DNA from: a virus
Taxonomy: Duplodnaviria > Heunggongvirae > Uroviricota > Caudoviricetes
IMG/VR virus record: IMGVR_UViG_3300042339_000806
Length of the DNA stretch: 48,709 nucleotides
Direction: 5' to 3' (one strand)
Shown: positions 23,839 to 30,651 of the stretch, piece by piece
How positions within the stretch are numbered: the stretch's first letter is position 1
Layout of the letters: each line of letters starts with the position of its first letter
Made by a program: the position numbers and the translations under genes
The notes under the pieces: model-generated
What the model was told of the DNA's origin: nothing
Seen by the model: only the letters and a program-made list of their open reading frames with translations
Database searches by the model: none

Positions 23839-25962
23839 ATGGCAGAATCAATTATCTCTCCAGGAGTATTTACAAGAGAAAACGACCTTTCTTTTATACA
23901 ACCAGCACCGGTAGCGGTAGGAGCAGCATTTATTGGACCAACAGTTAAAGGGCCTGTAGAAATGCCTACAGTAGTAACTTCTTATAATGATTATGTAAGA
24001 AAGTTCGGAGTAACTTTCGCCTCAGGTTCAGACAAATTCGAATATTTAACTTCATTAGCCGTTAAGAATTACTTCTCTCAAGGAGGTAATACAGCCTTAA
24101 TCACTAGAGTCGTAGACCACATTGGCCCTGATTACTCAGAAGCACAAAGTACAAACATTGCTTCTAACAAAGTAACAGGAGTAAATAGAGCAACTGGATC
24201 AGGAACTTTAACAAATGACATTGCAGTCAATCAAGAGTTTAAAGTACAGTACGGAACAGCAGCTTATAGATTTATTCCAGCAGGTACCCCACTTCCAGCA
24301 GATAGTGGAACAGGTAATGTATACTTCTTCCAATCAGGTTCAACAATTGCAGCAACAGTAACTAGCTTAGCAGCAGAAATTAACAATGCAATCCCAGGAG
24401 TATTACAAGCAACAGGATCAGGAGCAAATTTACTTTTAAGCGGATCAGTAGCTGGTACTTTAAGAAATGGAATTACATTCTTTACAGGATCTATTACAGA
24501 CTCTACCGTATCATCAAGCTTATTCACAATAGCAGGAGGTACAGACGCAGCAGCTTCTTCTTTCCCATTCTCAATTAATACAATAGGTAAAGGAGCTATT
24601 TACAACAACTCTCCTCTAGCAACAGATGCAGGAGCTCAAAACTCTGACGGATCTTTAGTATCAGGTTCAGAAGATAACTTAAGATGGGAAATCACAAATG
24701 TAAATAACTCTAGAGGTACTTTTACATTATCAATAAGAAGAGGAGACGATAGTACAAATACTAAAGTAATCTTAGAAACGTTTAACAACCTTTCATTAGA
24801 TCCAGCTTCAGATGATTATATCGAGAAAAGAATCGGTAGTCAATATACAACAATTGGTACAGACGGAAGTTCAACATTTTTAAGACTAGTAGGAGATTAT
24901 CCAAATAGATCAAACTTTATTAGAGTAAGTGCAGTAAATTTACCTACAATTAACTACCTAGGAAACGACGGAGTATCAGTTAATGCAGATGCAGCAGGAC
25001 TTTCTTACTCAGCATCTTTACCGCAAGCAGTTTCTGGAGCATTTCATAGTGCAGGAGGTACAATTATAGCAGGAGCTAACTTCTTTAAAAACATAGACGC
25101 TCAAACACAGGGATTAATAGCAGGAGATTATACAGATGCAATTGCATTATTAGAGAATAGAGATGATTATCAATTCAATGTAATAACAGCACCAGGAGTA
25201 ACTACAGCAGATCACTCAACAGTAACAGACGCACTTATCTCTTTAGCAGAAAATAGAGGAGATTGTATTGCAGTAGTAGACTTAGTAGGATATGAATCTA
25301 CACTTTCTCAAGTAACAGATGAAGCAGCAGTATTAAATAGTTCTTACGCAGCATCTTACTGGCCTTGGTTACAAACTAAATCAGCTACAGGTAAGAATGA
25401 ATGGATACCAGCTTCAGTTGTAATACCAGGAGTTTATACATTCACAGATGCAGCTTCAGCACCATGGTTTGCACCAGCAGGACTTGTAAGAGGAGGTATT
25501 CCAGGAGTAATTCAAGCACAAAGAAGATTAACAAAAGGAGAAAGAGATACTTTATACTCAGGAAAAGTAAATCCAATTGCTTCTTTCCCAGGAACAGGTA
25601 TATCAGTATTCGGACAAAAAACATTACAAACAAAAGCTTCAGCTTTAGATAGAGTAAACGTTAGACGTTTGTTAATAGAACTTAAGAAGTTCATTGGTGA
25701 CCAAGCTAAAAACTTAGTATTCGAACAAAATACTATTGCAACAAGAAATAAATTCTTAGCGACGGTTAATCCTTACTTAGAATCAGTAGTACAAAGACAA
25801 GGTCTTTATGCATACAGAGTAGTAATGGACGAATCTAACAACTCAGCAGATGTAGTTGATAGAAATCAATTAGTAGGACAAATCTACATTCAACCAGCTA
25901 AAACAATTGAATTCGTAGTATTAGACTTCACAATTGAACCAACAGGAGCAACGTTTGTATAA
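23839..25962 (+). CDS. Contractile tail sheath protein (T4 gp18-like)
   Basis: ISPGVFTRENDLS, AAFIGPTVKGP, YWPW, WFAPAGLVRG, VNPIASFPG, GQKTLQ, ALDRVNVRRLLI, IQPAKTIEFVVLDF. Confidence 0.95.
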   Translation: MAESIISPGVFTRENDLSFIQPAPVAVGAAFIGPTVKGPVEMPTVVTSYNDYVRKFGVTFASGSDKFEYLTSLAVKNYFSQGGNTALITRVVDHIGPDYSEAQSTNIASNKVTGVNRATGSGTLTNDIAVNQEFKVQYGTAAYRFIPAGTPLPADSGTGNVYFFQSGSTIAATVTSLAAEINNAIPGVLQATGSGANLLLSGSVAGTLRNGITFFTGSITDSTVSSSLFTIAGGTDAAASSFPFSINTIGKGAIYNNSPLATDAGAQNSDGSLVSGSEDNLRWEITNVNNSRGTFTLSIRRGDDSTNTKVILETFNNLSLDPASDDYIEKRIGSQYTTIGTDGSSTFLRLVGDYPNRSNFIRVSAVNLPTINYLGNDGVSVNADAAGLSYSASLPQAVSGAFHSAGGTIIAGANFFKNIDAQTQGLIAGDYTDAIALLENRDDYQFNVITAPGVTTADHSTVTDALISLAENRGDCIAVVDLVGYESTLSQVTDEAAVLNSSYAASYWPWLQTKSATGKNEWIPASVVIPGVYTFTDAASAPWFAPAGLVRGGIPGVIQAQRRLTKGERDTLYSGKVNPIASFPGTGISVFGQKTLQTKASALDRVNVRRLLIELKKFIGDQAKNLVFEQNTIATRNKFLATVNPYLESVVQRQGLYAYRVVMDESNNSADVVDRNQLVGQIYIQPAKTIEFVVLDFTIEPTGATFV

Positions 25963-26007: not shown

Positions 26008-26496
26008 ATGGCAGTATTAGATCCAAACGAAATAATGTTCAGAGCCTTCGAACCAATGGTTCAGCACAGGTTCGTAATGTACATAGACAATATCCCAGCA
26101 TTCATGATTAAAAACGTGAAAGCTCCTAACTTTCAAGATTCTATGATCAAACTTGATCACATTAACTCTTACAGAAAAATAAGAGGAAAAAGAGAGTGGC
26201 AGGATATGGATATGACTTTATACTCACCAATCACACCTTCAGGGGCTCAAGCAGTAATGGAATGGGCTCGTTTAGGATATGAATCAGTAACAGGTAGAGC
26301 TGGATATTCAGATTTCTATAAGAAAGATTTAACTTTAAACATTCTAGGTCCTGTAGGAGATATCGTAGGGGAATGGATTATCAAAGGAGCTTTCTTAACA
26401 AAAGGAGATTTTGGACAATTTGACTGGACTTCTGCTGACGGAGTAGTAGAGATAGGAATTTCAATTGCAATGGATTATTGTGTATTAAATTACTAA
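26008..26496 (+). CDS. Tail tube protein (T4 gp19-like)
   Basis: 162 aa after the sheath; HRFVMYI, REWQDMDMTLY, AVMEW, YKKDLTL, EWIIKGAF. Confidence 0.9.
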   Translation: MAVLDPNEIMFRAFEPMVQHRFVMYIDNIPAFMIKNVKAPNFQDSMIKLDHINSYRKIRGKREWQDMDMTLYSPITPSGAQAVMEWARLGYESVTGRAGYSDFYKKDLTLNILGPVGDIVGEWIIKGAFLTKGDFGQFDWTSADGVVEIGISIAMDYCVLNY

Positions 26497-26518: not shown

Positions 26519-26549
26519 AAGCCTGGCAGTAGCCGGGCTTTGTTGTTTT
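26519..26549 (+). terminator. Terminator after tube gene
   Basis: AAGCCTGGC-agta-GCCGGGCTT (9 bp, one U-G) then tgttgtttt. Confidence 0.75.
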
Positions 26550-26605: not shown

Positions 26606-27346
26606 ATGGAACAAAAGCAAAAATTTCCTACCGAAATGGTAGAATTACCATCAAGAGGGTTACTCTATCCTAAAGATTCTGCATTAGCAGAAGGTAAAAT
26701 CGAGATGAAATACATGACAGCTCGTGAGGAAGATATTCTAACAAATCAAAACTACATACAACAAGGAGTAGTTATTGATAAATTACTACAATCTCTTATT
26801 GTAACTCCAATCAACTACGGAGATCTTTTATTAGGAGATAAGAATGCAATTCTAGTTGCTTCTAGGGTATTAGGGTACGGTAAAGATTATGAATTTGAAT
26901 ACAAAGGACGAAAAGAAGTAGTTGATCTTGCAGAATTAAAAACTAAAGAAATTAATTACGATGCTCTTAAGGGAGGTAAAAATGAATTTGCATATATAAT
27001 GCCATCTTCAAGTACCAATGTTACTTTCAAATTACTTACTCACGCAGATGAGCAATTTATCGATCAAGAAGTAAAAGGATTAAAAAAATTAACAAAAGAT
27101 GCTTCTCCGGAATTATCTACAAGATTGAAAAGAATAATTACTTCTGTAGAAGGAGATTCAACACCTAAAGCAATTAGAGATTTTGTCGATAATTACTTAT
27201 TAGCAAGAGACTCTAGAGCATTTAGAGAACACATTAGACAGGTACAACCGGATGTTGACTTAAAATTCTTCCCAGAAGATGGACCTGAAGGAGGGGTAGA
27301 TATCCCAATTGGGGTTAGCTTTCTTTGGCCTGACGCCGGAATATAG
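26606..27346 (+). CDS. Tail assembly chaperone / baseplate hub assembly protein (T4 gp26-like)
   Basis: VELPSRGLLYP, MKYMTAREEDILT, LLLGDKNAIL, FKLLTH, LLARDSRAFREHI, ends SFLWP; lies between tube and tape measure. Confidence 0.75.
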   Translation: MEQKQKFPTEMVELPSRGLLYPKDSALAEGKIEMKYMTAREEDILTNQNYIQQGVVIDKLLQSLIVTPINYGDLLLGDKNAILVASRVLGYGKDYEFEYKGRKEVVDLAELKTKEINYDALKGGKNEFAYIMPSSSTNVTFKLLTHADEQFIDQEVKGLKKLTKDASPELSTRLKRIITSVEGDSTPKAIRDFVDNYLLARDSRAFREHIRQVQPDVDLKFFPEDGPEGGVDIPIGVSFLWPDAGI

Positions 27347-27575
27347 AGCCGGGTTATTTGCTCAACTACATGACATAGTTTTTAACGGACAAGGAGGGTA
27401 CTCTTTCGATACAGTATACGAGTTTCCGATATGGTTAAGAAAGTATATTCATAGAACTATGGTAGAACATTATCAAAAACAGAATAAGGAACAGCAGCAG
27501 CAATCCGGTAAGGCATCGGTATTGCAAAACGGACATATAAAAGCACCGGATTATAGTACAAAAGCTTCTAGATAA
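27309..27575 (+). CDS. Overlapping +1-frame ORF, probable frameshift extension of the chaperone (gp51-like / lambda gpT position)
   Basis: Frame open 27300-27575; no ATG until near its end; FFGLTPEYR...LHDIVFNGQGGYSFDTVYEFPIWLRKY looks like real protein; 5' end overlaps the previous gene. Confidence 0.65.
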   Translation: MGLAFFGLTPEYRAGLFAQLHDIVFNGQGGYSFDTVYEFPIWLRKYIHRTMVEHYQKQNKEQQQQSGKASVLQNGHIKAPDYSTKASR

Positions 27576-27585
27576 TAGAAGCTTT
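27561..27585 (+). other. Perfect 10-bp inverted repeat with the ORF stop codon in its loop
   Basis: AAAGCTTCTA-gataa-TAGAAGCTTT; no U-tract. Confidence 0.6.
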
Positions 27586-27612: not shown

Positions 27613-30600
27613 ATGTCAGATCAATACGAAAATAAAAATGCCGGGGAATTAAGAGACATTCTTAAGTCCATAACAGGGGAACTTTCTAAACAGAGAACTA
27701 TACAAGCTGAATCAGCAGCAGAGTATAGAAAAATGGATAGTATTGCAAGGAACCTTCAGGACACTTCTATGGGGATAAGTAATCTGACTTCTGAAGAGTT
27801 AGACAAACTTAGATCAAAAAACCAAAACCATATAAAGGAGTTACAGTACCAAGCTGAAAGACTAGCTAGACAAAAGATAGGTTTAGGGTTTGAAGGAAAA
27901 ATAACTGCAGAAACTATAGAAAGGTTAAAGTACCTAGATAAGTTATCAATACAGGAAGAGGCAATCTTACGAGCAGCAGCTGATCATTTTGAAATTGAAA
28001 AATCACTTACAGCAGAGGTAGAAGATCAGTATAAAAAAAGACTGGCATTTGAAAAGCAAGTAAGTAACTCATTAGGAGTTAGTGGAGCAATCATAGGTGG
28101 TATAGATGGGATAATGAGTAAACTGGGAATGAACTCAGGAATATTCAAAGACTCTATAGAAGAATCTAAGAAAGCAATGCAAGAGGCTGCAGAAGCAGCA
28201 GCAAGAAATGGAGAGCATATAAGTAAGACCGCTATCATGATGAAAGGCTTAGGTCCCTTAGCTTCCGGCTTTGGAAAAGCTCTTTTAGATCCATTAACAA
28301 TAATTACAGCAATATTAGACGGATTCTTCCGAGTAAATAAAGCATCTGTAGAAGTACAACAGTTAACAGGTCAATACGAAACATCTATTGCAGGAGTTAA
28401 TGATAGATTAGCAACATCAGCACAATTTTTACAAACCGCAGCAGAACTAACAAAACAGTTAGGAGTATCCGCAACTCTAGTATTTGCACCAGATCAAATA
28501 GCACAATTAGCAGAAGCTAAAAATTTATTAGGACTTTCAGCCGAACAAGCAGGTAGAATGGGAATCTTAATGAAGACTACCGGAAAGTCTGCAGATCAAG
28601 TAGGACAAGGAATTTACGATACAGTAAATGCGTATAATGGAGCAAATCGAGCAGGAATAGCGCACGGAGTAGTGTTACAGGATGTACTAGGTGCTTCAGA
28701 TAGTATAACAGCTTCTTTAGGAAATAGTGAGAAGAAGATAGGAGCTGCAGCAGTAGCGGCAAGAGGATTAGGATTAAGTCTAAGCGAAGTAGATGAAATT
28801 GCAGGAAGCTTTCTTAATTTTGAAGATTCTATATCTGCAGAATTAGAAGCACAATTACTTACCGGGAAAAACTTAAACCTATCTAAAGCAAGAGAACTTG
28901 CATTGAATAACGACCTAGAAGGAGTAGCTAATGAACTAAAGAAGAACGGAGCATCAGCAGCAGAGTACGCTGGTATGAACCGTCTTGAACAAGAAAGTTT
29001 AGCTAAAGCATTAGGAATGTCCAGAGATCAACTTGCTAAAAGCGTACTAACGCAAGAAGCAATGAAGAACATGACTGACGAGCAAATAGCAAAAGCAAGA
29101 GGAGTTACTTTAGAGCAGTCAAAAGCAATGGATGTTCAAGAAAAGATGCAAGTAGGTATGCAAAAATTAGCAGAAGCATTTGCCCCAGTCTTGGATGTAG
29201 TTGTTAATTTAGTAGATGCATTGATGTTTGTAATAACACCTGTAGCAAAGCTTATTGCAATGGTAGTAGGAAACCCTATAGGAAAAGCAATACTTCTAGC
29301 AGTAGTAGCAGCTAATTTCTTAGGAGTAGCAGTATCGGGAGTAGGGAAAGCTTTTGGATCAATGTACCAGTTAGGAGCAAAAGCTCTAACAGGTATAACA
29401 AGTTTATTTAAAAGTGGAGGATTAAAATCCGCTTTAGGAGGCCTTAAAGATAATTTAACAGGAGGATTTAAAGGAGGAGCTGGAGGCTTAAAAGATAAGA
29501 TAATGGGTCCAGCAGCTGATAAGACGAAAAGTCTTGCAGGAGATGCCGGAGGAGCAGACGCAAAGAAAGGTGGAGGAATAAAAGGATTTTTAAAAGGACT
29601 AGGAGATGGTTTAGCCAGTATGGGTAAACAAATGGGCGATATAATAAAAGGAGCAATAGCATTAGGAATTGCAGGAGTTGCAATAGCAGGAGGATTAGCA
29701 ATTGCTATGATGATTATTAAAGATGTTGATCCCGCTAAGATGTTAGCATTTACAGGATCAATAGCTATGTTAGGGCTTACTTTAGCCATTATGGGTAAGA
29801 TAGGAGGTAACGTTATACAAGGAGCCTTAGCTTTAGGAATAGTCGCTCTAGCTTTAATACCAGCAGCATATGCATTCAGTTTATTAAAAGATGTAGATAC
29901 AGATAAGATTATAGCATTCTCAATAGCAGTACCTTTATTAGCTCTTGCAGCAGCAGGTTTAGGATTCTTACTAACGCCAATTGCTATGGGAGCATTAGCA
30001 TTAGCAGCTTTAGGAGTTGGATTAATGGCAGTAGGAGCAGGGTTTATGGTGTTAACAGCTGGACAAGCAGGCTTTGGCCTATTCAACCAGTTACTAGATA
30101 CTATGGCAGACAAAGGAGTAGCAGCAGGACTAGGATTAGGAGCAACAGGAATAGGGATGGGGCTACTAGGAGCAGCAGGATTCCTTGCATTCCCAGGAAT
30201 GTTATTAGCAGCAGTCGCAATGAGTGCGATGATTATACCACTAACACTACTAAGCGCAGTCGCATCAGCCGGAGTACTTCCAATACTAGCAACAACCTTA
30301 ATGCAAATAGCAGCCGCAGCACCAGGATTATTAGGAGTTGGAATGGCTTTATTTAGTATAGCAGCAGGATTAGGAGCAGTAGCCCTAGCAGGAGTTCTGG
30401 CAATACCGGCAATCGGAGGAGCAGTAATGCTTGCAGCAGTATCACCAGCATTAGTATCTTTAGCAGAAGCTTTTGGAATGGGAGGAGATAGTGCAGGAGA
30501 AGCTAAAGGAAAATCAGAGGAAGGATCTATGGCAGTAGTAGAAGCTAAATTAACAGAACTTATAGCAGTAGTAAAAGCAGGAGGAAATGTATACTTAGAT

Positions 30601-30651
30601 TCTAACAAAGTCGGTAGAGCACAAGTACTCGGAAGTTATAAATCTTCATAA
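27613..30651 (+). CDS. Tape measure protein
   Basis: 1012 aa, helical Ala/Glu-rich N-half (NFEDSISAELEAQLLTGKNLNLSKARELAL) and hydrophobic Ala/Gly-rich C-half; follows the chaperone. Confidence 0.85.
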   Translation: MSDQYENKNAGELRDILKSITGELSKQRTIQAESAAEYRKMDSIARNLQDTSMGISNLTSEELDKLRSKNQNHIKELQYQAERLARQKIGLGFEGKITAETIERLKYLDKLSIQEEAILRAAADHFEIEKSLTAEVEDQYKKRLAFEKQVSNSLGVSGAIIGGIDGIMSKLGMNSGIFKDSIEESKKAMQEAAEAAARNGEHISKTAIMMKGLGPLASGFGKALLDPLTIITAILDGFFRVNKASVEVQQLTGQYETSIAGVNDRLATSAQFLQTAAELTKQLGVSATLVFAPDQIAQLAEAKNLLGLSAEQAGRMGILMKTTGKSADQVGQGIYDTVNAYNGANRAGIAHGVVLQDVLGASDSITASLGNSEKKIGAAAVAARGLGLSLSEVDEIAGSFLNFEDSISAELEAQLLTGKNLNLSKARELALNNDLEGVANELKKNGASAAEYAGMNRLEQESLAKALGMSRDQLAKSVLTQEAMKNMTDEQIAKARGVTLEQSKAMDVQEKMQVGMQKLAEAFAPVLDVVVNLVDALMFVITPVAKLIAMVVGNPIGKAILLAVVAANFLGVAVSGVGKAFGSMYQLGAKALTGITSLFKSGGLKSALGGLKDNLTGGFKGGAGGLKDKIMGPAADKTKSLAGDAGGADAKKGGGIKGFLKGLGDGLASMGKQMGDIIKGAIALGIAGVAIAGGLAIAMMIIKDVDPAKMLAFTGSIAMLGLTLAIMGKIGGNVIQGALALGIVALALIPAAYAFSLLKDVDTDKIIAFSIAVPLLALAAAGLGFLLTPIAMGALALAALGVGLMAVGAGFMVLTAGQAGFGLFNQLLDTMADKGVAAGLGLGATGIGMGLLGAAGFLAFPGMLLAAVAMSAMIIPLTLLSAVASAGVLPILATTLMQIAAAAPGLLGVGMALFSIAAGLGAVALAGVLAIPAIGGAVMLAAVSPALVSLAEAFGMGGDSAGEAKGKSEEGSMAVVEAKLTELIAVVKAGGNVYLDSNKVGRAQVLGSYKSS

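What the first reader, a model, noticed from the sequence alone, without database searches (positions are those of the whole stretch)
26606..27575. Probable +1 programmed frameshift in the tail chaperone gene at AGC_UUU_CUU_UGG
Seen: the chaperone ends ...GVS-F-L-W-PDAGI* (TAG 27344-27346). A second frame, offset +1, is open only from 27300 (TAG at 27297) to 27575 and has no ATG until its last quarter. At 27320-27326, a +1 slip moves UUU to UUC (both Phe) and CUU to UUU, giving F-F-G-L-T-P-E-Y-R and a predicted 322-aa fusion (239+83). Established: genes between tube and tape measure commonly use G/GT frameshifts, usually -1; +1 slips occur at UUU_C (influenza PA-X UCC_UUU_CGU) and CUU_U (prfB). 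Inference: a +1 (or -2) G/GT system in a T4-like myovirus. The alternative is initiation at TTG 27309.
Basis: partly seen in the sequence, partly recalled or inferred. Interest (0 to 1): 0.75.

Follow-up and report, generated by a model that had tools for sequence, protein, structure and literature searches.

The report
Conserved +1 frameshift in tail chaperone
A Flavobacterium phage gene between the tail tube and tape-measure genes very probably makes a 28 kDa and a 37 kDa protein because some ribosomes slip one base forward on a U-rich site; the site is conserved and unannotated in over a hundred related phage sequences, but the general kind of device is already known.

Summary
ORF1 (26606-27346, 246 aa) ends in ...GVSFLWPDAGI*, and a +1 frame is open only from 27300 to 27575.

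In 78 of 78 related IMG/VR loci with enough DNA, the ORF2 homologue lies in the +1 frame. Across 65 unique sequences:
- The 15-nt block TTT-YTT-TGG-CCT-GAC is almost invariant.
- Codon-position variability switches from the ORF1 frame to the ORF2 frame exactly there.
- 17 loci have no ATG/GTG/TTG before the motif.
- ORF2 has dN/dS of 0.09-0.30.

The same junction recurs in distant phages of Microcystis, Rhodothermus, Bacillus, Listeria and Streptococcus. One huge-phage clade uses a canonical -1 heptamer (U_UUU_UUC) at the same Phe-Phe position. Two loci carry ORF2 as a separate gene.

ORF1 belongs to the T4 gp26/gp51 family and ends where gp26 ends. The extension aligns weakly with the gp51 tail.

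Best reading: a low-level ribosomal +1 slip at UUU_C and/or CUU_U gives a 322-aa long form, working like lambda G/GT. Interrupted T runs argue against transcriptional slippage.

A 2022 paper that I could not read already identified short and long chaperone genes in T4-like phages. This is therefore a new variant of a known kind. No protein-level evidence exists yet.

The parts
26606..27346 (+). ORF1, the short form (246 aa, 27.8 kDa). A tail or hub assembly chaperone of the T4 gp26/gp51 family.
   Evidence: ORF and translation. phrog_150 E 1.8e-8, and the same PHROG holds T4 gp26 and gp51. The AF2 model (pLDDT 90.9) matches the Bacillus phage SP-15 baseplate hub subunit at TM 0.80, E 6e-16, and T4-like hub assembly proteins.
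27320..27326 (+). Proposed +1 slip site UUU_CUU_U. tRNA-Phe moves from UUU (27320-22) to UUC, and/or tRNA-Leu moves from CUU (27323-25) to UUU.
   Evidence: In 65 unique loci, T0-T2 and T4 are 65/65, position 3 is T35/C30, and T5 is 63/65. Some relatives can slip only at the first codon (TTT CTA T) and others only at the second (TTC TTT T).
27320..27334 (+). 15-nt nearly invariant dual-coding block TTTCTTTGGCCTGAC. It reads F-L-W-P-D in frame 0 and F-F-G-L-T in frame +1.
   Evidence: Information content is 1.8-2.0 bits at 14 of 15 positions. It uses GGC, CTG and ACG, which are 3-4% of their codon families in this genome.
27300..27346 (+). Overlap of the two frames in this genome. The shift must occur inside it.
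   Evidence: Across the 65 loci the common part of the overlaps shrinks to -8..+15 around the first T of the motif.
27321..27575 (+). ORF2 frame: an 84-aa C-terminal extension of the long form (322 aa, 36.7 kDa), stop TAA at 27573-27575.
   Evidence: dN/dS 0.09-0.30, against more than 1 in the wrong frame. 242 homologues, all short stand-alone calls. The AF2 model has three helices, with pLDDT above 94 for residues 11-60.
27302..27315 (+). Candidate stimulator. Either an SD-like GGGG (27311-27314) 5 nt before the UUU, or a 5-bp hairpin AUCCC-AAUU-GGGGU.
   Evidence: GGG fills the Gly codon at -9..-7 in 38 of 58 loci, against 8-9% of Gly codons elsewhere. All 5 pairs are kept in 45 of 65 loci. 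The pair made of two synonymous sites pairs in 48 loci against 38.8 expected. Function is inferred only.
27309..27311 (+). TTG, the only candidate start codon for independent initiation of ORF2 in this genome (rival explanation).
   Evidence: It is not conserved: position -10 is T in 31 of 65 loci, and 17 of 65 loci have no ATG/GTG/TTG before the motif.
26008..26496 (+). Tail tube gene (context).
   Evidence: phrog_4542 E 1.6e-15 and a weak PF06841 match. Annotated as tail tube in phage immuto.
27613..30651 (+). Tape measure gene (context).
   Evidence: The homologue in phage immuto is annotated as tail tape measure protein. It had no profile hit here.

Best explanation
**What it is.** ORF1 is a tail or hub assembly chaperone of the T4 gp26/gp51 family. 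It sits in the classical chaperone slot between the tail tube and tape measure genes.

**What happens.** Most ribosomes stop at TAG 27344 and make the 246-aa short form. A minority slip one base forward on the U-rich site at 27320-27326. In that slip, P-site tRNA-Phe moves from UUU to UUC, and/or tRNA-Leu moves from CUU to UUU. These ribosomes then read GGC CUG ACG... to the TAA at 27573, giving a 322-aa long form that carries an 84-aa helical extension.

**How it probably works.** By analogy with lambda G/GT and with T4's short (gp26-like) and long (gp51-like) chaperones:
- The two forms probably act together in assembling the tape measure and hub complex.
- The long form is probably needed in small amounts.
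- Neither form is expected in the finished virion.

**Shown and inferred.**
- Shown: the conserved +1 arrangement, the conserved slippery block, the switch of selective constraint at that block, the lack of start codons in many relatives, and family membership.
- Inferred: that the shift is ribosomal, which codon slips, its efficiency, any stimulator, and the assembly role.
For: **The +1 arrangement is conserved.**
- In all 78 IMG/VR loci with enough DNA (ORF1 identity 61-92%), the ORF2 homologue is in the +1 frame.
- In 65 unique sequences, TTT-YTT-TGG-CCT-GAC is invariant except for Y. Low-information positions are ORF1 third positions upstream of the block and ORF2 third positions from +15 onward.
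- The overlaps common to all loci leave only -8..+15 for the shift. 17 of 65 loci have no ATG/GTG/TTG in the ORF2 frame before the motif.
- In a further clade (L088-L103) the +1 frame opens only 23 nt before the ORF1 stop, and no Met occurs until about residue 32 of a conserved peptide.

**ORF2 codes for protein but is never found fused in frame.**
- ORF2 has dN/dS 0.09-0.30, against more than 1 in the wrong frame.
- A phmmer search of 1.8 billion representatives found 242 ORF2 relatives. The 150 listed are short calls, none an in-frame fusion of about 320 aa.

**Distant phages share the junction.**
- Mel-JY01, RM378, SP-15, LIS04, HSE3, GXN1, LR756508 and L114 all have a +1 ORF at the same Phe-Phe or Phe-Leu junction.
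- Their extensions are homologous to this one (hhalign probability 97.5%, E 5e-12).
- The LR756511 clade (4 loci) has the extension in the -1 frame behind a canonical U_UUU_UUC heptamer at the same residues.

**Family evidence.**
- phrog_150 holds gp26 (profile positions 14-235) and gp51 (13-280). PF12322 ends exactly where ORF1 ends in SP-15, HSE3 and RM378.
- Fold match to SP-15 at TM 0.80.
- The complete immuto genome has only one gene of this family.
- The extension aligns to gp51 residues 221-246: hhalign P 0.0026, score 18.1, against column-shuffled controls of mean 9.6, sd 2.0 and maximum 15.6 over 60 shuffles.

**Predicted ORF1 and extension complex: weak support only.**
- ipSAE 0.44, best of 3 controls 0.01.
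- The mark was reached by 58 of 80 solved complexes and 2 of 110 mismatched pairs.
- At a score of 0.60 or under, only 7 of those 80 solved complexes reached it, as did both mismatches that passed.
- The runs agree in at least 86% of their contacts, and partner pLDDT is at least 81.

**Literature and own knowledge.**
- T4 gp26 and gp51 are listed as hub assembly chaperones, and gp51 is absent from the particle (PMC3004832).
- UUU-pyrimidine sites are known to be prone to +1 shifts (Fu and Parker 1994; Schwartz and Curran 1997; own knowledge, not checked here).
Against: - There is no protein, ribosome-profiling or reporter evidence. Everything is comparative.
- No obviously slow A-site codon follows the site: the next codon is CUU or UGG, not a stop or a clearly rare codon. 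No conserved downstream RNA structure was found. Efficiency may therefore be low and is unknown.
- The SD-like GGGG lies 5-8 nt from the slip codons, further than the 3 nt of prfB. Its conservation could equally reflect a small hairpin.
- Two relatives (L098, L104) carry the extension as a separate gene with its own ATG, so covalent fusion is not indispensable.
- One clade (L115-L119) lacks a UUU_Y site at the junction. It would have to slip elsewhere, perhaps at CCC_A.
- This genome does have a TTG at 27309 in the ORF2 frame.
Confidence: 0.85

Rival explanations
1. ORF2 is a separate small protein, translated from its own start. The start would be TTG 27309 or a near-cognate codon in the overlap, possibly coupled to termination of ORF1.
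For: - TTG 27309 exists.
- Gene callers routinely call ORF2 relatives as stand-alone small proteins.
- In L098 and L104 the homologue really is a separate gene with its own ATG and about 25 extra N-terminal residues.
Against: - 17 of 65 unique loci, and the L088-L096 clade, have no ATG/GTG/TTG before the conserved N-terminal peptide F-G-L-T....
- The TTG is not conserved.
- Amino-acid constraint in the ORF2 frame starts exactly at the slippery block.
- A U-rich slippery site is kept at the same residues whether the extension lies in +1 or in -1.
Confidence: 0.06
2. The long form arises from transcriptional slippage: RNA polymerase drops one U in the T run, and ribosomes then read the edited mRNA normally.
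For: - 34 of 65 relatives have an uninterrupted T7 run, and Mel-JY01 and RM378 also have T7.
- A deletion of one U gives the +1 frame.
- The title of Vladimirov et al. [quoted passage not shown] I could not read the paper. One citing paper says this refers to separate short and long genes.
Against: - This window has TTTCTTT, as do 26 of 65 relatives.
- Others have TTTCTAT or TTCTTTT, with runs of only 3-4 T.
- The C/T alternation is what a UUU_Y ribosomal site tolerates and what a polymerase slippage site does not.
Confidence: 0.04
3. The shift is -2 rather than +1. The product would differ from the +1 product by one residue at the junction.
For: A -2 shift reaches the same frame. From CUU (27323-25), a tRNA-Leu could re-pair with UUC (27321-23) using one G-U pair (inference).
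Against: In the L088 clade (GGC TTC TTT TGG, with a TAG just upstream), no codon re-pairs after a -2 move. UUU_U, by contrast, re-pairs perfectly after +1 (reasoning from the sequence).
Confidence: 0.03

Closest known systems
Lambda G/GT and the conserved tail assembly chaperone frameshift (Levin 1993; Xu, Hendrix and Duda 2004; reviewed in PMC5009743)
   Same: - Two overlapping ORFs lie between the tail tube (major tail) gene and the tape measure gene.
- The second ORF has no start of its own.
- A conserved slippery site sits near the end of the first ORF.
- A short abundant form and a long rare form are expected.
   Different: - The direction is +1, not -1.
- There is no X_XXY_YYZ heptamer.
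- ORF1 has the gp26/gp51 (PF12322) fold, not a gpG-type chaperone fold, and at 246 aa it is about twice as long.
T4-like phage tail assembly chaperones, short and long genes (Vladimirov, Gautam and Davidson, Virology 2022, PMID 34826709). The paper is not held, so I know it only from its title and from citing text in PMC10274946 and PMC12846349.
   Same: - Same protein family. T4 gp26 ends where ORF1 ends, and gp51 carries a C-terminal tail.
- Citing papers say some T4-like phages carry a short gene plus a longer fused gene.
- Citing papers also say poly-T slippery sequences occur in the short chaperone (TAC-N) genes of T4-like phages.
   Different: - Here one gene plus a +1 slip makes both forms, and the whole immuto genome has a single family member.
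- I could not check whether that paper names gp26 and gp51 or covers +1 cases.
E. coli prfB (RF2) +1 frameshift, CUU_UGA_C with an upstream Shine-Dalgarno-like sequence
   Same: - CUU_U with re-pairing to UUU. The window reads CUU_UGG_C, one base different from prfB.
- A G-rich SD-like element lies upstream.
   Different: - The A-site codon is Trp UGG, not a stop.
- The SD-like GGGG is 8 nt from the CUU (5 nt from the UUU), against 3 nt in prfB.
- No autoregulatory logic is apparent.
UUU-pyrimidine +1-prone sites (Fu and Parker 1994; Schwartz and Curran 1997) and influenza PA-X UCC_UUU_CGU (own knowledge)
   Same: - P-site tRNA-Phe on UUU followed by C or U, re-pairing with UUY.
- HSE3, GXN1 and L117 read TTC TTT CGT, the same UUU_CGU core as PA-X. 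HSE3 and GXN1 continue with C (CCC), L117 with T (TCT).
   Different: Those bacterial sites are error sites or engineered sites, and PA-X is eukaryotic. Here the site is fixed by selection in a phage structural operon.
Pakpunavirus and Andersonviridae chaperone locus with -1 frameshift at GTTTTT (PMC12846349)
   Same: A myovirus chaperone gene followed by an unannotated or 'hypothetical' ORF. It was recognised by the same kind of comparative argument, and it has a T-rich slippery site.
   Different: It shifts -1, and it was not shown here to belong to the gp26/gp51 family.
Two-gene chaperone of Bacillus phage 0305phi8-36 (PMC2147016)
   Same: It shows that the short/long relation can be encoded without frameshifting, as in T4 and in loci L098 and L104.
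   Different: It uses paralogous genes of a lambda-G-like helical protein, with no slip site.

Membership tests
G/GT-type frameshifted tail assembly chaperone (functional class) | [quoted passage not shown] | tested here: met
   Gene order is sheath 23839-25962, tube 26008-26496, ORF1/ORF2, then tape measure 27613-30651. The same order holds in SP-15, HSE3, LIS04 and Mel-JY01.
G/GT-type frameshifted tail assembly chaperone (functional class) | A conserved slippery sequence in the overlap, and a second ORF that lacks its own start. | tested here: met
   The shift is +1 rather than the usual -1.
G/GT-type frameshifted tail assembly chaperone (functional class) | Both products are made at a fixed ratio, both are required for tail assembly, and both are absent from virions. 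| not testable with these tools
   This needs proteomics and genetics. For T4 gp51, absence from the particle is reported (PMC3004832).
Lambda gpG-like chaperone protein family (homology) | Sequence or fold similarity to gpG-type chaperones. | tested here: not met
   No Pfam or PHROG chaperone hit. The fold search returns gp26/gp51-type hub proteins. ORF1 works like G/GT but is not a homologue.
T4 gp26/gp51 family (Pfam PF12322 T4_baseplate, phrog_150) | A profile match. | tested here: met
   - phrog_150 E 1.8e-8 over residues 4-172. The same PHROG gives gp26 E 7e-71 and gp51 E 3e-84.
- The window protein itself does not reach PF12322.
- Its tblastn relatives do: SP-15 (E 1.5e-28), HSE3 (E 1.3e-22) and RM378 (E 2.4e-9).
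T4 gp26/gp51 family (Pfam PF12322 T4_baseplate, phrog_150) | A shared fold. | tested here: met
   The AF2 model (pLDDT 90.9) matches the SP-15 baseplate hub subunit at TM 0.80, E 6e-16, and 'Baseplate hub assembly protein, T4-like' at TM 0.72. There are 52 hits at E <= 1e-3.
T4 gp26/gp51 family (Pfam PF12322 T4_baseplate, phrog_150) | Two Cys pairs (zinc-ribbon-like), seen in gp26, gp51, SP-15, HSE3 and LR756508. | tested here: not met
   ORF1 and the fusion contain no cysteine. The alignment shows the Cys pairs in the other members. This looks like a lineage-specific loss, and I do not know whether the pairs are defining for the family.
gp51-type long form (C-terminal tail after PF12322) | An extension homologous to the gp51 C-terminal 48 residues. 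| tested here: inconclusive
   - hhalign P 0.0026 (z about 4 against shuffles). Against full-length gp51, P 0.024, with the best match at residues 221-246.
- No hmmscan hit of ORF2 to phrog_150, phrog_634 or Pfam.
- The fold search of the extension was uninformative.
prfB-type +1 frameshift site | CUU_U slip codon, a stop codon in the A site, and an SD 3 nt upstream. | tested here: not met
   CUU_U is present. The A site holds UGG, and the SD-like GGGG is 8 nt from the CUU. The re-pairing is the same, but this is not the same device.
UUU-Y +1 shift-prone site | An in-frame UUU followed by a pyrimidine. | tested here: met
   UUU_C lies at 27320-27323 and is present in 65 of 65 unique relatives. 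In the L088 clade and in HSE3 and GXN1, the UUU_Y is the second codon.

The most novel reading that the evidence does not exclude
The Phe-Phe junction at the end of the gp26/gp51 domain may be an ancient recoding point that different myovirus lineages have resolved in four ways:
- ribosomal +1 slippage (this large aquatic clade and the Firmicute phages);
- canonical -1 slippage (a huge-phage clade);
- a split-off small gene (L098, L104);
- duplicated short and long genes (T4).

On this reading the T4 'exception' to the conserved chaperone frameshift is a derived state. In a Bacteroidota host, which does not use Shine-Dalgarno sequences for initiation, the +1 event would be tuned by a selected upstream GGGG element that acts through the anti-SD or as a refolding hairpin.
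Probability: 0.4. Interest if true: 0.7.

Novelty: new variant of a known kind. Interest (0 to 1): 0.55.

Why it matters
**Annotation.** The frameshift is missing from the closest GenBank records. In phage immuto, ORF2 is a 36-aa 'hypothetical protein' called from an internal ATG. In LIS04, 231 nt are left unannotated. The family is very abundant in aquatic metagenomes: more than 8000 clusters at 90% identity matched the fusion query.

**Recoding biology.** +1 frameshifts in phage tail chaperone genes are rare next to the -1 type. This is a deeply sampled natural series for studying +1 slippage at UUU_Y and CUU_U without a stop codon, in a host phylum with unusual ribosome-mRNA interactions.

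**Phage assembly.** The result ties the poorly understood T4 proteins gp26 and gp51 to the short-form and long-form chaperone logic. It predicts that the helical extension carries the function that gp51 adds to gp26.

**Limit.** A 2022 paper already identified short and long chaperone genes in T4-like phages, so the conceptual step is modest.

Tried and rejected
- **Fused protein structure.** I did not resend it. ORF1 and the extension were folded separately instead.
- **afdb_swissprot fold searches**. Nothing useful came back, apparently because that library lacks phage proteins.
- **BFVD search with the extension**. No hit at E <= 1e-3 and no gp51 hit. Some weak hits are the small neighbours of gp26-like genes, such as Leptospira phage LE4.
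- **hmmscan of ORF2 and its distant counterparts** against PHROGs and Pfam. No family was found.
- **A mixed alignment of ORF1 pieces and ORF2 pieces under the fusion** (A3). It was misaligned and I discarded it.
- **tRNA genes in the window.** None.
- **Whole genome of the window.** Not held. The immuto genome was used instead.
- **Literature.** Searches of the held library found no paper that describes a +1 frameshift in a gp26/gp51-family gene. The most relevant paper, Vladimirov et al. 2022, is not held.
- **Assembly error at the T run.** Rejected, because over 100 independent contigs agree.
Full report
**1. The observation**

The window is a relative of Flavobacterium phage vB_FspM_immuto, a 160-kb myovirus, with 86% nucleotide identity over this region. 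ORF1 (26606-27346) encodes 246 aa ending ...GVSFLWPDAGI. The frame offset by +1 has a TAG at 27297 and is open from 27300 to the TAA at 27573-27575. TTT CTT TGG lies at 27320-27328.

The only ATG/GTG/TTG in the overlap is TTG 27309. The first ATG of that frame is at 27459, codon 54 of 92. Reading through with one +1 step gives 322 aa and 36.7 kDa, against 27.8 kDa for ORF1.

The immuto record annotates ORF1 as 'baseplate hub subunit'. It annotates only a 36-aa 'hypothetical protein' from the internal ATG and leaves the rest of ORF2 unannotated.

**2. Conservation of the arrangement**

A scan of IMG/VR returned 80 loci with ORF1 identity of 61-92%. In every one of the 78 with enough DNA, the ORF2 homologue (40-91% identity) is in the +1 frame. 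After removing duplicates, 65 unique sequences remain.
- **The block.** In these, TTT-YTT-TGG-CCT-GAC is invariant apart from Y (T35/C30) and a handful of single changes.
- **The switch of frame.** Upstream of the block the poorly conserved positions are third positions of the ORF1 frame. From position +15 onward they are third positions of the ORF2 frame, although ORF1 continues for another 1-3 codons. That switch of constraint is the signature expected of a recoding site.
- **The room for the shift.** The region common to all overlaps is only -8..+15 around the first T.
- **Start codons.** 17 of 65 loci have no ATG/GTG/TTG in the ORF2 frame before the block.
- **Selection on ORF2.** The non-overlapping part has dN/dS 0.09-0.30. 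The same DNA read in the ORF1 frame gives values above 1.
- **No in-frame fusions.** A search of 1.8 billion representative proteins with ORF2 found 242 relatives. All 150 listed are short stand-alone calls, except one 266-aa protein with the domain at its N-terminus. None is an in-frame fusion of about 320 aa.

**3. Distant relatives**

The module sheath, tube, ORF1, small overlapping ORF, tape measure recurs in several cultured phages (sequences; annotated gene order).

| Phage or locus | Junction sequence (ORF1 frame) | Frame of the extension |
|---|---|---|
| Microcystis phage Mel-JY01 | TTT TTT TGG CCT | +1 |
| Bacillus phage SP-15 | TTT TTT CAC | +1 |
| Listeria phage LIS04 | TTT TTT AGT | +1 |
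| B. cereus phage HSE3 | TTC TTT CGT | +1 |

The same junction and +1 extension occur in further phages where the neighbouring genes are arranged differently, are not annotated, or were not examined.

| Phage or locus | Junction sequence (ORF1 frame) | Frame of the extension |
|---|---|---|
| Rhodothermus phage RM378 | TTT TTT TGG | +1 |
| Streptococcus phage GXN1 | TTC TTT CGT | +1 |
| Uncultured huge phage LR756508 | TTT CTA TTC | +1 |
| L114 | TTT TTT CGT | +1 |

The Firmicute-phage extensions are homologous to the Flavobacterium-type ORF2 (hhalign probability 97.5%, E 5e-12).

Three kinds of variant are informative.
- **Clade L088-L103.** It reads GGC TTC TTT TGG with a TAG just upstream in the +1 frame. 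The overlap is only 23 nt, so only the second codon (UUU_U) can slip. By contrast, L019, L028 and LR756508 (TTT CTA T) allow only the first codon.
- **The LR756511 clade (4 loci).** The extension lies in the -1 frame behind GGT/AAT/AGT TTT TTC, a canonical U_UUU_UUC heptamer at the same Phe-Phe residues.
- **L098 and L104.** The extension is a separate gene starting just after the ORF1 stop, with its own ATG and about 25 extra residues.

One clade (L115-L119) reads TTA TTT/TTC AAT CCC AGT and has no UUU_Y. A CCC_A slip two codons later is possible there.

**4. What the protein is**

ORF1 hits phrog_150 'baseplate hub' (E 1.8e-8). That PHROG contains both T4 gp26 (208 aa, profile positions 14-235) and T4 gp51 (249 aa, positions 13-280).

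Pfam PF12322 (T4_baseplate) covers all of gp26 and residues 1-201 of gp51, which leaves a 48-aa tail. In SP-15, HSE3 and RM378 the model ends exactly at the end of ORF1, which is at the slip site.

The AF2 model of ORF1 (pLDDT 90.9) matches the SP-15 protein at TM 0.80. It also matches many T4-like 'baseplate hub assembly' proteins. ORF1 is therefore a divergent member of the gp26/gp51 family. It has lost the Cys pairs present in the other members.

A MAFFT alignment places the gp26 C-terminus (...EFFELL) on the slip site and the gp51 tail on the ORF2 extension. Profile comparisons support this modestly.
- The extension family against the gp51 tail gives P 0.0026 and score 18.1. Column-shuffled controls give mean 9.6, sd 2.0 and maximum 15.6 over 60 shuffles.
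- Against full-length gp51 profiles, the best match for both the Flavobacterium-type and the Firmicute-type extensions falls at gp51 residues 221-246 (P 0.024 and 0.27).

The complete immuto genome has only one gene of this family.

The extension is predicted as three helices. A complex prediction of ORF1 with the extension gave only weak support.
- The score was ipSAE 0.44, and the best of 3 controls scored 0.01.
- The mark was reached by 58 of 80 solved complexes and 2 of 110 mismatched pairs.
- At a score of 0.60 or under, only 7 of those 80 solved complexes reached it, as did both mismatches that passed.
- The runs agree in at least 86% of their contacts, and partner pLDDT is at least 81.

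The T4 tail review lists gp26 and gp51 as hub assembly chaperones and says gp51 is required but absent from the particle (PMC3004832).

**5. Mechanism**

Established knowledge:
- tRNA-Phe on UUU followed by a pyrimidine is prone to +1 shifts.
- CUU_U re-pairs with UUU in prfB.
- Influenza PA-X uses UUU_CGU.

These come from the review PMC5009743 and from my own knowledge of Fu and Parker 1994 and Schwartz and Curran 1997.

The window offers both UUU_C and CUU_U. Every relative that keeps the Phe junction offers at least one. The two products differ only at one residue (F or L).

A -2 shift does not fit the L088 clade.

Transcriptional slippage needs a long homopolymer. The window and about half of its relatives have an interrupted run (TTTCTTT), and others have TTTCTAT or TTCTTTT. 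A ribosomal event is therefore the economical explanation, although polymerase slippage could add to it in T7-run relatives.

The search for stimulators gave the following.
- No conserved downstream structure.
- No tRNA genes in the window.
- The Gly codon at -9..-7 is GGG in 38 of 58 loci, against 8-9% of Gly codons elsewhere. This makes GGGG 5 nt before the UUU.
- The same bases can instead form a 5-bp hairpin with the Pro codon upstream. It is kept whole in 45 of 65 loci, with four pair types at two synonymous sites.

I cannot decide between these two readings, and neither is shown to act.

The strict conservation of TGG-CCT-GAC is fully explained by dual coding: W-P-D in frame 0 and G-L-T in frame +1. 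That dual coding forces the rare codons GGC, CTG and ACG.

**6. What is known**

Frameshifted tail assembly chaperones are textbook. They are usually -1, and a +1 case has been suspected in the archaeal myovirus HSTV-2. T4 has been called the exception (PMC5009743).

[quoted passage not shown] The paper is not held, so I rely on citing papers.
- One says some T4-like phages carry a short gene and a longer fused gene instead of frameshifting (PMC10274946).
- Another says poly-T slippery sequences occur in the short chaperone (TAC-N) genes of T4-like phages (PMC12846349).

I reached the short/long reading of gp26 and gp51 from profile coordinates. It is therefore probably not new.

Within the literature I could search, three things appear unreported:
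- a conserved +1 ribosomal site in this family;
- its unannotated presence in a very abundant aquatic clade (more than 8000 clusters at 90% identity matched the fusion query);
- the series of +1, -1, split-gene and duplicated-gene solutions at one junction.

**7. Verdict**

- Confidence is about 0.85 that ORF2 is expressed as a +1 frameshift extension of ORF1.
- Confidence is about 0.6-0.7 that the extension corresponds to the gp51 tail.
- The slip codon, the efficiency and any stimulator remain open.
- This is a new variant of a known kind, of moderate interest. There is no protein-level evidence.

Noticed in passing
window 27561-27585: A 10-bp perfect hairpin (AAAGCTTCTAG-ATAAT-AGAAGCTTT) spans the ORF2 stop codon just before the tape measure gene. 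It is conserved in phage immuto with one loop change. It could be a terminator, an attenuator or an RNA stability element between the chaperone and tape measure genes.
   Followed up: no
window 26519-26540: A terminator-like GC-rich hairpin followed by T-rich sequence lies right after the tail tube gene, and an AT-rich stretch lies before ORF1. The tube gene and the chaperone gene may be on differently regulated transcripts.
   Followed up: no
L001 5459-5569 (NC_055915) and L110 2230-2459 (Listeria phage LIS04): Public records miss the extension. Immuto gp038 (36 aa) is an internal fragment of ORF2. LIS04 leaves 231 nt unannotated between 'baseplate hub' and the tape measure gene, where a 102-aa +1 ORF lies.
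   Followed up: partly
window 26606-27346 compared with L085, L086, L083, L087: ORF1 of the Flavobacterium-phage clade contains no cysteine. T4 gp26 and gp51, SP-15, HSE3 and LR756508 keep two Cys pairs (zinc-ribbon-like), so this clade appears to have lost a metal site.
   Followed up: partly
L098 2208-2543 and L104 2214-2513: In two IMG/VR contigs the ORF2 homologue is a separate gene in the -1 frame, starting right after the ORF1 stop, with its own ATG and about 25 extra N-terminal residues. ORF1 there keeps F-L-[WY]-P-D but has no long +1 ORF.
   Followed up: partly
L112 2180-2200; L120-L122 about 1890-1910: A huge-phage clade (LR756511, 595 kb, and relatives) has the extension in the -1 frame behind a canonical U_UUU_UUC heptamer, at the same Phe-Phe position where the other clades shift +1.
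   Followed up: partly
L115-L119 about 1900-1930: This clade reads GAA TTA TTT/TTC AAT CCC AGT with a 29-nt overlap and no UUU_Y. A CCC_A slip is the only obvious +1 option. HSE3 and L114 also have CCC_A two codons after their UUU.
   Followed up: no
window 29136-30608, minus strand: A 490-aa antisense ORF lies inside the tape measure gene. It is probably a by-product of the Ala/Gly-rich, G+C-richer composition of that part of the gene.
   Followed up: no
P0264 (266 aa, metagenomic): A predicted protein with the ORF2 domain at its N-terminus followed by about 200 unrelated residues. It may be a fusion with a downstream gene or an assembly or gene-calling artefact.
   Followed up: no
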